This document shows positions 733-60,914 of a stretch of 64,000 nucleotides of DNA, in pieces. Location of the stretch: positions 32,302,001-32,366,000 of the forward strand of contig OZ024756.1 of assembly GCA_964016885.1 (NCBI GenBank). Reading direction: 5' to 3'. The DNA comes from Eledone cirrhosa. Taxonomy: Eukaryota. The first letter of the stretch is position 1. The number at the start of each line of letters is the position of its first letter. The notes under the pieces are model-generated. The model had not been told where the DNA came from. It searched no databases and was given only the letters and a program-made list of their open reading frames with translations. A program made the translations under genes and the position numbers.

Positions 733-942
733 CAGTAAACCGCGCCATAATGCGACACTGCTTTTATTTAGTCGATCGTTTCGACCCTTGTAATTGTATT
801 TTGAATCTGGTCCTTATTTTAGCGATCTCGTTTTTGTCGAAGAGACATAAACATACAAATATACCAGATTCAAAATACAATTACAAGGGCCGAAACGATC
901 GACTAAATAAAAGCAGTGTCGCATTATAGCCGCAGTTTACTG
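733..942. repeat. Fold-back inverted repeat of a diverged SINE 3' part
   Basis: 747-811 (ataatgcgacactgcttttatttagtcgatcgtttcgacccttgtaattgtattttgaatctggt) is the reverse complement of 863-927 with one mismatch. Imperfect pairing extends to 733/942. Confidence 0.9.
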
Positions 943-58787: not shown

Positions 58788-59437
58788 CATATATATGTAT
58801 AAATATAAATGTATATATATATATATATATACATACATATACAGGCACAGGCACGGGCAGACACAAGCAAACGAAGAAATAAATACACAAGTTCATTCAT
58901 ATACGTTTTAAATACTTCTGATATTGATGATCTTTCAGATAGAGGATGATGATAAGGATGATGGTGATGGTGATGGTGATGATGATGATGATGATGATGA
59001 TGACGACAATGATGATGATGATGATTGTGATGGTGTCGTTGTTGATGACGATGATGATGGCGGTTGTTTTGATGACGATGATTAAGAAGATGGAAAGTTA
59101 TAGTAGAAATATCTATATAGGCTTAACATTCATTTAAATTTATATTAAATACATATATGTCATTCGAAGCCATTACAATATTTTAAACTCTAAAACCCAT
59201 TAAAATATATTACAGCACGGTAAACCTTATAAACAACATAACAGCGTTTCTTAGTCTTGAACTTGACATTATATATATATATATATAAATTTTGAGTATA
59301 TGTTGGTTGTATACCAACACATCAATATGCAGAGTGGAGCACTCGACAGAGTGCGCAGATTGGTTTGGTTACTCCGGAGTAATGTAAAATAAAATAAAAT
59401 AAATAAGTCAAATGTTTAAAATTTGGCTTCGTTTATT

Positions 59438-59492
59438 ACTGCTATATATATTTCGGTGACAGCCATCTTTGACTGTGACCTCTTCAGGCAGT
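59438..59492 (-). ncRNA. Minimal type I hammerhead ribozyme
   Basis: Minus strand reads ACTGC-CTGAAGA-GGTCACAGTC-AAAGAT-GGCTGTCACC-GAAA-TATATA-TA-GCAGT. Stem I is 5/5, stem II is 9/10, stem III is short and palindromic, the cleavage triplet is AUA, and AATAAA follows immediately. Confidence 0.8.
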
Positions 59493-60029
59493 CCGAATTA
59501 GTGTGGTAGGACGACTACACATGTTGTTGAGGTTATTTAACTTTGTCAATACTCTGATATGCCCAGTTACTGGTTGGGTTGTTGTTTCACCGAGGAACTG
59601 GAATCATATGAATTTAAACAAACGAATTTCAGTATCAAAGGACATCCTCTCCTCTCATTGGTCAGTTGTGAGAACATACCTCAGTCAAAAGTCTATAGAA
59701 ATTCGTTCTGAGGCAAGGCAATCTGTAGTGGTTGTTCTTGTTATTGTTAAGTACATCTGACCTCTACTCTTATGTTGGTAGTGGTGTTGGTGTTAGAGTC
59801 AGCTCAATAAAATGATAAAGTGGTAGAAGGAATAAGGTGGTAAAGGAACAAAATAAAATAATCAAATAAAATGTGTGTGTGTTATACCCAATCTCAATGT
59901 TATAAAAATTTGTACGGTCACTCCTCCCATTGGTCAGTTTTGGTCTGCCATGTATATGAAGAAATGGAAGGCAATAAAATGAACAAAACAGAAAATAAAT
60001 AATAAATAGAAAATAAATGAAAAATTAAT

Positions 60030-60350
60030 GAAAAATAAAAAATGAAAAATGAAAAATGAAAAATGAAAAATGAAAAATGAAAAATGAAAAATGAAAAATG
60101 AAAAATGAAAAATGAAAAATGAAAAATGAAAAATGAAAAATGAAAAATGAAAAATGAAAAATGAAAAATGAAAAATGAAAAATGAAAAATGAAAAATGAA
60201 AAATGAAAAATGAAAAATGAAAAATGAAAAATGAAAAATGAAAAATGAAAAATGAAAAATGAAAAATGGAAATTGAAAAATGAAAGATGAAAAATGAAAA
60301 ATGAAAAATGAAAAATGAAAAATGAAAAATGAAAAATGAAAAATGAAAAT
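60030..60350. repeat. (AAAAATG)n heptanucleotide array
   Basis: Direct reading, roughly 45 units. Confidence 0.95.
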
Positions 60351-60914
60351 GAAAAGTGGAAAATAGAAGTGAAGATTCAAATCAAATAAAATGTGTGTGT
60401 GCTATAACCAATCTCAAGGGCAGAAAGATGTTGGATAAAGTGGTAGGAGAAACAAGATGGTAAATGAATAAGACGAAATAAGATAATCAAATAAAATGTG
60501 TGTGTGTTATAACCATTCTCAACTTAAATAGAAGGCAATAAAGTAAAGAAAACAAAACAAATGAAAAATCAAGTAAAATAAAATGTGTGTGTGTTATAAA
60601 GATGTTGGCCAAATTAGAAAGGCTGTGTCAGAATCAATCTCTAGATATATTTATTTCATTAAGGCTAAATAATGAGTTTTGTTACTTTGAACATTTGCCT
60701 GCTCATCACAGGGTCATCAGGCAAGAACAGACGAAACTCCAGAGTAATAAAACTCATTATTTAGCTTTAAAAAACTTGAATTTATAATTCTATTCCGGTA
60801 TTGAGTACTCATTTTATCAGAGCCGTCAACCATATGCGGATATATATGCAGTATATATATCTATATGGAGCATATATATCTATATGCAGCATGTATATCT
60901 ATATGCAGTATATA

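What the first reader, a model, noticed from the sequence alone, without database searches (positions are those of the whole stretch)
59438..59492. Complete, potentially active minimal hammerhead ribozyme
All conserved core nucleotides and three stems are present. The tiny palindromic stem III (TATATA) is the form known from PLE-associated minimal type I hammerheads, which are thought to cleave as dimers. AATAAA follows directly, and a CCAAT-containing motif (aactgaccaatg.gagga) occurs twice upstream (about 59650 and 59925), consistent with a pseudo-LTR.
Basis: partly seen in the sequence, partly recalled or inferred. Interest (0 to 1): 0.72.

Follow-up and report, generated by a model that had tools for sequence, protein, structure and literature searches.

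The report
Hammerhead in a Hydra-clade Penelope retrotransposon
This is a real hammerhead (self-cutting RNA) motif at the end of one broken copy of a known kind of jumping gene that has thousands of copies in this animal genome; it is predicted to cut only slowly and only in pairs, and it keeps an odd unpaired C-C that sister families share.

Summary
The motif is real: minus strand, 59492-59438, with all core bases, a 5-bp helix I, a long helix II and an 8-nt (UA)4 palindrome in place of helix III. It was the only descriptor hit in the window, with none in 100 shuffles. Rfam does not detect it. It lies in the pseudo-LTR of a Penelope-like retrotransposon of the Hydra clade: full copies read hammerhead-ORF-hammerhead about 4.1 kb apart, with an intact 892-aa RT/GIY-YIG ORF bearing the clade's motifs. 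The window copy is a 5'-truncated, ORF-less end (about 60644-59285) in a (TA)n run, one of at least 1,421 and roughly 10,000 copies. Sister families change helices I and II with compensation but keep a C·C mismatch (18 of 19). Copy ends do not map to the cut site (1 of 71), so insertions appear to come from uncut or re-joined RNA. Cleavage is untested. Hydra hammerheads are published, and this scan noted the C·C mismatch before on another piece of this genome (e1-8670794). New member of a known kind.

The parts
59438..59492 (-). Type I hammerhead motif, whole
   Evidence: sequence; fold; descriptor and shuffles
59488..59492 (-). Helix I, 5' arm (pairs with 59442-59438)
   Evidence: compensatory changes across families
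59481..59487 (-). Core C3-A9 (CUGAAGA)
59455..59480 (-). Helix II: 3 bp, C·C mismatch (59477·59458), 6 bp, 6-nt loop; the window copy has a G·U at 59472 where most copies have G-C
59444..59454 (-). G12-A15.1 and the 8-nt (UA)4 palindrome (helix III, predicted to form between two copies)
59442..59443 (-). Predicted cleavage site after the AUA triplet
   Evidence: hammerhead numbering applied to the sequence; not assayed
59285..59437 (-). Pseudo-LTR tail; in full-length copies the same sequence runs on into the 5' leader and the ORF start
59271..59286 (.). (TA)n run at the 3' junction (insertion target)
   Evidence: the 30 loci end likewise
59285..60644 (-). Whole window copy: 5'-truncated, ORF-less 3' UTR/pseudo-LTR of a Hydra-clade PLE; starts about 170 nt after the ORF stop
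59650..59667 (-). CCAAT-containing motif, end of a ~155-nt UTR sub-repeat (59803-59649)
59922..59939 (-). Second CCAAT motif: remnant of the upstream sub-repeat unit, most of which (about 225 nt relative to L013) is missing in this copy
60038..60355 (-). Expanded 7-nt microsatellite inside the element's UTR
   Evidence: variable length among copies

Best explanation
The motif is the hammerhead carried in the pseudo-LTR of a high-copy Hydra-clade Penelope-like retrotransposon, here in a 5'-truncated solo copy without ORF, and it likely cuts slowly and only when two copies pair through the (UA)4 palindrome. Shown: the fold elements, the family, the hammerhead-ORF-hammerhead layout, the clade motifs, compensatory change across sister families, and that genomic copies run through the cut site. 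Inferred: a full-length or tandem transcript brings two motifs together; they swap helix I arms and form an 8-bp A-U helix III; the cut falls after AUA and trims precursor RNA to unit length or circles. The element's RT would start about 160 nt downstream of the site, at a nicked (TA)n target, on uncut or re-joined RNA, and stopped here after about 1.36 kb. This solo copy would be silent as a ribozyme unless transcribed and paired in trans.
For: Family: 40 of 40 scored candidates match at 93-100% over 401 nt; 1,421 exact matches to a 37-nt core-helix II pattern against 0 for the reversed control. Layout: hammerheads on both sides of the ORF in 7 of 12 long loci, 3.5-4.3 kb apart (L104 also). 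Intact ORFs of 892 and 891 aa in L099 and L100, 99.1% identical over 3,994 nt. RWK, DKT, YRDD, CxCx5C, YIG, CxxC and CxH all present, matching the Hydra diagnosis (PMC8557442 section 11). Selection on structure: 19 hand-picked family representatives give 83% of cells paired, 14 of 19 pairs with two-sided change, covariation score 0.574 against 0.07-0.15 for slid controls. Dimer: two copies fold at -37.0 kcal/mol as a double hammerhead against 2 x -14.9; closing helix III in the monomer costs 2.7 kcal/mol. Published PLE hammerheads of this kind showed no monomer and low dimer activity (PMC4209133). AUA was the slowest of four triplets in a viroid hammerhead (PMC1636495 abstract). In an anole PLE, cleavage was not needed for insertion in vitro (PMC11167929).
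Against: No cleavage or expression data for this family. Copy ends give no sign of cutting in vivo: 1 of 71 5' ends within 3 nt of the site, 8 of 71 within -9..+13, 33 of 71 run at least 9 nt through it; only 13 copies have a long TA run after GAAA, 8 of which stop there. Rfam has no match. Pfam and PDB sequence searches did not recognise the ORF; RVT_1 hit 1 of 3 homologues tested. Clade placement rests on motifs and by-eye comparison with the published alignment, not on a tree. The 19 rows were found with a pattern that fixes the core and the palindrome, so their invariance is by construction. Only 1 of 9 Xenopus retrozyme dimers cleaved in one study (10.64898/2026.07.22.740005).
Confidence: 0.8

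Rival explanations
1. The fold is kept mainly as a binding or pausing signal for the element's RT/EN protein, with the C·C mismatch as the mark, and catalysis is negligible in vivo.
For: C·C at the fourth position of helix II in 18 of 19 representatives and never a standard pair; by eye 192 of the 200 listed pattern hits; ends ignore the cut site; the pair next to the core is often G·U or A·C (G-C in only 5 of 19).
Against: About 40,700 genome matches keep the exact catalytic words and spacing against 56 in the reversed controls, and helix I closes exactly at the cut position in families with unrelated helix I sequence. The anole PLE hammerhead does cleave.
Confidence: 0.13
2. A non-autonomous retrozyme (small tandem repeat giving circular RNA) rather than the end of a coding element.
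For: The window copy has no ORF; ORF-less copies far outnumber those that reach the ORF start (73 exact matches to a 5'-leader pattern).
Against: No tandem unit containing the hammerhead in the window (1 hit); upstream sequence runs straight into the endonuclease end in longer copies; 5' ends are scattered as expected from truncation.
Confidence: 0.04
3. This particular copy has been taken over by the host as a transcript-processing or poly(A) signal.
For: The 55-nt motif differs from the family majority at 1 position, against 16 in the other 346 nt; AATAAA follows.
Against: One change in 55 against 2.5 expected is within chance; AATAAA is a family trait; nothing marks this copy out from thousands. 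Host gene context was not examined.
Confidence: 0.03

Closest known systems
Hydra-clade PLEs and their hammerheads, including Hydra-1_Obim (Craig et al. 2021, PMC8557442; seen: passages, section 11, supplement part 2 of 59 and search passages)
   Same: Single ORF with RT and C-terminal GIY-YIG; RWK, DKT, CxCx5C, CxxC, CxH; insertion into (TA)n; hammerhead near the 3' end; inverted 5'-truncated partners.
   Different: Unit about 4.1-4.3 kb and ORF 892 aa, against under 3 kb for most published families (Obim 2,507 bp, 709 aa), owing to two low-complexity inserts and a 1.2-kb sub-repeat-rich UTR. By eye 0 of the 26 Hydra rows of the published hammerhead table have the (UA)4 helix III or the 3 bp + C·C helix II. 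True pseudo-LTRs are present, whereas Obim was listed without.
Minimal hammerheads of metazoan PLE pseudo-LTRs (Cervera and de la Pena 2014, PMC4209133; seen: parts 1-2 of 4)
   Same: Type I topology, long helix II, 5-bp helix I, palindromic helix III, thousands of dispersed single copies, opposite-strand pairs 100-700 bp apart.
   Different: No extra base between A9 and 10.1; internal C·C mismatch (the Drosophila virilis motif has a single bulge instead); palindrome of 8 nt; low sequence variability within the family.
Poseidon element PAc of the green anole (PMC11167929; seen: part 1 of 4 and passages)
   Same: Genomic ends lie downstream of the hammerhead, in sequence that leads into the ORF; uncut RNA appears to be the template.
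   Different: Different clade; there the ORF starts inside the hammerhead, here about 200 nt after the cut site.
Animal non-LTR retrozymes (bioRxiv 10.64898/2026.07.22.740005; seen: passages only, supplements not seen)
   Same: ORF-less, hammerhead-bearing, PLE-derived sequence.
   Different: Not a tandem unit; a truncated end of the coding element.

Membership tests
Hammerhead ribozyme, type I | Core CUGANGA, GAAA and NUH with helix I open-ended | tested here: met
Hammerhead ribozyme, type I | Helices I and II kept by compensatory change | tested here: met
   6 of 7 and 8 of 10 pairs change on both sides; rows hand-picked and related
Hammerhead ribozyme, type I | Self-cleavage after H17 | not testable with these tools
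   no assay; no RNA run listed
Rfam hammerhead models | Score at the curated threshold | tested here: not met
   0 matches at E<=10 in 59300-60000
Minimal PLE hammerhead (Cervera 2014) | Palindromic, unstable helix III favouring dimers | tested here: met
   (prediction)
Minimal PLE hammerhead (Cervera 2014) | Unpaired base between positions 9 and 10.1 | tested here: not met
   helix II starts directly after A9
Minimal PLE hammerhead (Cervera 2014) | G10.1-C11.1 pair | tested here: met
   G-C in the window copy; G·U in the youngest subfamily
EN+ Penelope-like element | One ORF with RT and GIY-YIG endonuclease | tested here: met
   892-aa ORF with RT motifs and YIG; 42 full-length homologues, one with Pfam RVT_1; Pfam does not hit the ORF itself
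EN+ Penelope-like element | Pseudo-LTRs with hammerhead, tail, inverted 5'-truncated partners | tested here: met
Hydra clade | RWK and DKT motifs | tested here: met
   positions 37 and 120
Hydra clade | CxCx5C linker, CxxC and CxH, C-terminal EN | tested here: met
   positions 752, 850, 878
Hydra clade | Insertion into (TA)n | tested here: met
   30 of 30 loci have an AT-rich or (TA)n run at the 3' end
Hydra clade | Generally under 3 kb | tested here: not met
   unit 4.1-4.3 kb; the paper gives this as a tendency, not a criterion
Hydra clade | Groups with Hydra RTs in a tree | not tested
   reference proteins were seen only as supplement text and compared by eye
Non-LTR retrozyme | Head-to-tail non-coding units each with a hammerhead | tested here: not met
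   single hammerhead; continuous with the coding element

The most novel reading that the evidence does not exclude
A radiation of Hydra elements in this genome (about 40,000 motifs, at least 8 helix II types) uses a distinct hammerhead subtype in which a fixed C·C mismatch three pairs from the core and an invariant (UA)4 helix III act as a switch: the mismatch is read by the element's own RT/EN or tunes docking of helix II, so that cutting is held off on the RNA that is to be copied and allowed only in tandem precursors.
Probability: 0.2. Interest if true: 0.6.

Novelty: new member of a known kind. Interest (0 to 1): 0.27.

Why it matters
As found, it is one of thousands of ends of a known retrotransposon type, and hammerheads are already published for this clade. 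Its use is as a test system: the role of hammerheads in Penelope-like elements is still open, and this family offers near-identical intact ORFs, many natural helix variants and one fixed irregularity (the C·C mismatch) that can be paired or moved in a simple cleavage and binding assay.

Tried and rejected
Rfam scan of the whole window: the 150 listed of 435 matches were microsatellite-driven miRNA-type hits, no hammerhead among them; focused scan: 0. Sequencing runs: no RNA holder listed; three contig sets of unrecorded kind from one sample hold the family and its variants but cannot show ends or expression. Idea that insertions end at the cut site by pairing of the (UA)4 end with the (TA)n target: rejected, 8 such copies among roughly 10,000. 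Idea that 5' ends mark the cut site: rejected, 1 of 71 within 3 nt (several far-upstream values there are alignment breaks, so minimum extents). Idea of a tandem array of fully paired variants on C28: rejected; the six matches examined in L115 are an unrelated satellite without GAAA or helix II (script then failed before L116), so the 138 hits overstate the paired variant. Programmed frameshift in the ORF: rejected, intact single ORFs exist. Pfam and PDB searches of the ORF: nothing significant. Literature: 'hammerhead ribozyme'+'octopus', 'hammerhead'+'Penelope'+'cephalopod' and 'hammerhead'+'C-C mismatch'+'helix II' (0 occurrences of the mismatch phrase in the 15 listed of 55) found no account of the mismatch; the library lacks most subscription papers. 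No earlier scan note lies near this place. Host gene context and a phylogenetic tree were not attempted.

Full report
Observation. The minus strand at 59492-59438 holds a complete type I hammerhead: helix I (5 bp), CUGAAGA, helix II, GAAA, an 8-nt AUAUAUAU palindrome, A17 at 59443, and AATAAA directly after. Helices I and II are the lowest-energy fold. My descriptor found this one motif in the window and none in 100 of 100 shuffled windows. Rfam gave no match at E<=10. Helix II is interrupted by a C·C mismatch after three pairs.

Family. The window lies in a 3.0-Gb genome with 1,796 contigs; the two named protein relatives come from octopods, so a cephalopod host is likely (inference). All 40 scored candidates matched the 401-nt query at 93-100%. 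A 37-nt exact pattern has 1,421 matches, control 0. A looser pattern has 13,933 matches against 27; by eye 70 of the 100 listed belong to this family, which suggests roughly 10,000 copies. The window copy differs from the majority of 30 close copies at 17 of 401 positions, one inside the motif, where a G-C becomes G·U.

The element. Longer copies run upstream into an endonuclease and an RT. In 7 of 12 long loci a hammerhead stands on both sides of the ORF, 3.5-4.3 kb apart, so the motif sits in a true pseudo-LTR. Two of 6 loci chosen for long open frames hold complete ORFs of 892 and 891 aa, 99.1% identical in DNA, which points to recent activity of one subfamily; the window copy is 88% identical to it near the hammerhead and belongs to an older one. 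The ORF has RWK, DKT, YRDD, CxCx5C, YIG, CxxC and CxH. These, with insertion into (TA)n, are the published marks of the Hydra clade (PMC8557442), whose supplement lists an octopus member with a hammerhead. Pfam and PDB do not recognise the ORF; 1 of 3 homologues tested hits RVT_1. No tree was built.

The window copy. It spans about 60644-59285, begins some 170 nt after the ORF stop and ends in (TA)n like the 30 loci (those were found with a query that included the tail). It has no ORF and one hammerhead. The two CCAAT motifs belong to a ~155-nt sub-repeat within the UTR; most of the upstream unit is missing here. Its 5' end abuts the TA-rich end of an older, hairpin-shaped hammerhead-bearing repeat.

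Selection on the fold. With CUGAUGA in place of CUGAAGA the pattern has another 26,749 matches against 29. Sister families, 5 of whose fetched loci carry a related ORF at 38-65% identity, have unrelated helix I and II sequences. Nineteen hand-picked representatives give 83% paired cells, 14 of 19 pairs with change on both sides, and a covariation score of 0.574 against 0.07-0.15 for slid controls. Core and palindrome are fixed by the search pattern, so their invariance is no evidence. The mismatch was not searched for: it is C·C in 18 of 19 rows, never a standard pair, and by eye present in 192 of the 200 listed hits. By eye none of the 26 Hydra rows in the published table shows it, and three paper searches found no account. 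I saw it and noted it; the scan's note e1-8670794 reports the same feature from another piece of this genome, which is not independent support.

Mechanism. Closing helix III in the monomer costs 2.7 kcal/mol and has probability 0.006; two copies fold best as a double hammerhead with swapped helix I arms and an 8-bp helix III, -37.0 against 2 x -14.9 kcal/mol. Published PLE hammerheads of this kind cut weakly as dimers and not as monomers (PMC4209133), and AUA was the slowest triplet tested in a viroid hammerhead (PMC1636495 abstract). So slow, dimer-dependent cutting of tandem precursors is the likely function (inferred). Copy ends argue that cutting does not define the inserted DNA: of 71 distinct junctions near the ORF start (from 72 loci covering most of the 73 matches), 1 starts within 3 nt of the site, 8 within -9..+13, 33 run at least 9 nt through it, and 7 start at the unit boundary (+149..+153). 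Only 8 copies were found that stop in TA at the site. The window copy itself is continuous across the site, so its template was uncut or re-joined. This agrees with the anole PLE, where cleavage was not needed for insertion (PMC11167929). No RNA data were available, so activity in vivo is open.

Verdict. Observation confirmed; reading partly supported. A new family member of a known kind: the pseudo-LTR hammerhead of a Hydra-clade PLE, in an ordinary truncated copy. The conserved C·C mismatch is the one feature worth a bench test. Interest 0.27.

Noticed in passing
window 60646-60840: An older hairpin-shaped repeat (950 candidates, 73-86% identity) made of two back-to-back partial hammerheads of another family (4-bp helix II flanked by C and C, 3-bp helix III, GUA site in relatives); the window copy is decayed, and the studied element sits in its TA-rich end.
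   Followed up: partly
G000 genome-wide: About 40,700 matches to hammerhead cores with the same (UA)4 palindrome, in at least 8 helix II types, many as inverted pairs 100-5,000 bp apart.
   Followed up: partly
L147, L160, L213, L219, L232, L235, L240: 7 of 71 near-full-length copies begin at the same point where 3' ends stop (+149..+153 from the cut site), a TA-like word; may reflect exact unit-length copies or microhomology with the (TA)n target.
   Followed up: no
L068, L077, L099, L100: The youngest subfamily, with intact ORFs, has G·U rather than G-C at the helix II pair next to the core.
   Followed up: partly
L099:1919-4594: The ORF carries two low-complexity inserts (about 130 and 55 aa) absent from published Hydra proteins; most copies are frameshifted at G or C runs.
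   Followed up: no
L115 (G000:C28, about 21.6-21.9 Mb): A higher-order satellite with 1.3-1.5-kb spacing that shares a 17-nt word with the motif by chance; not a hammerhead in the six units read.
   Followed up: partly
window 739-936: A long near-perfect inverted repeat (scores 96.7 bits on a plant miRNA model, below its threshold of 144); probably a MITE-like hairpin.
   Followed up: no
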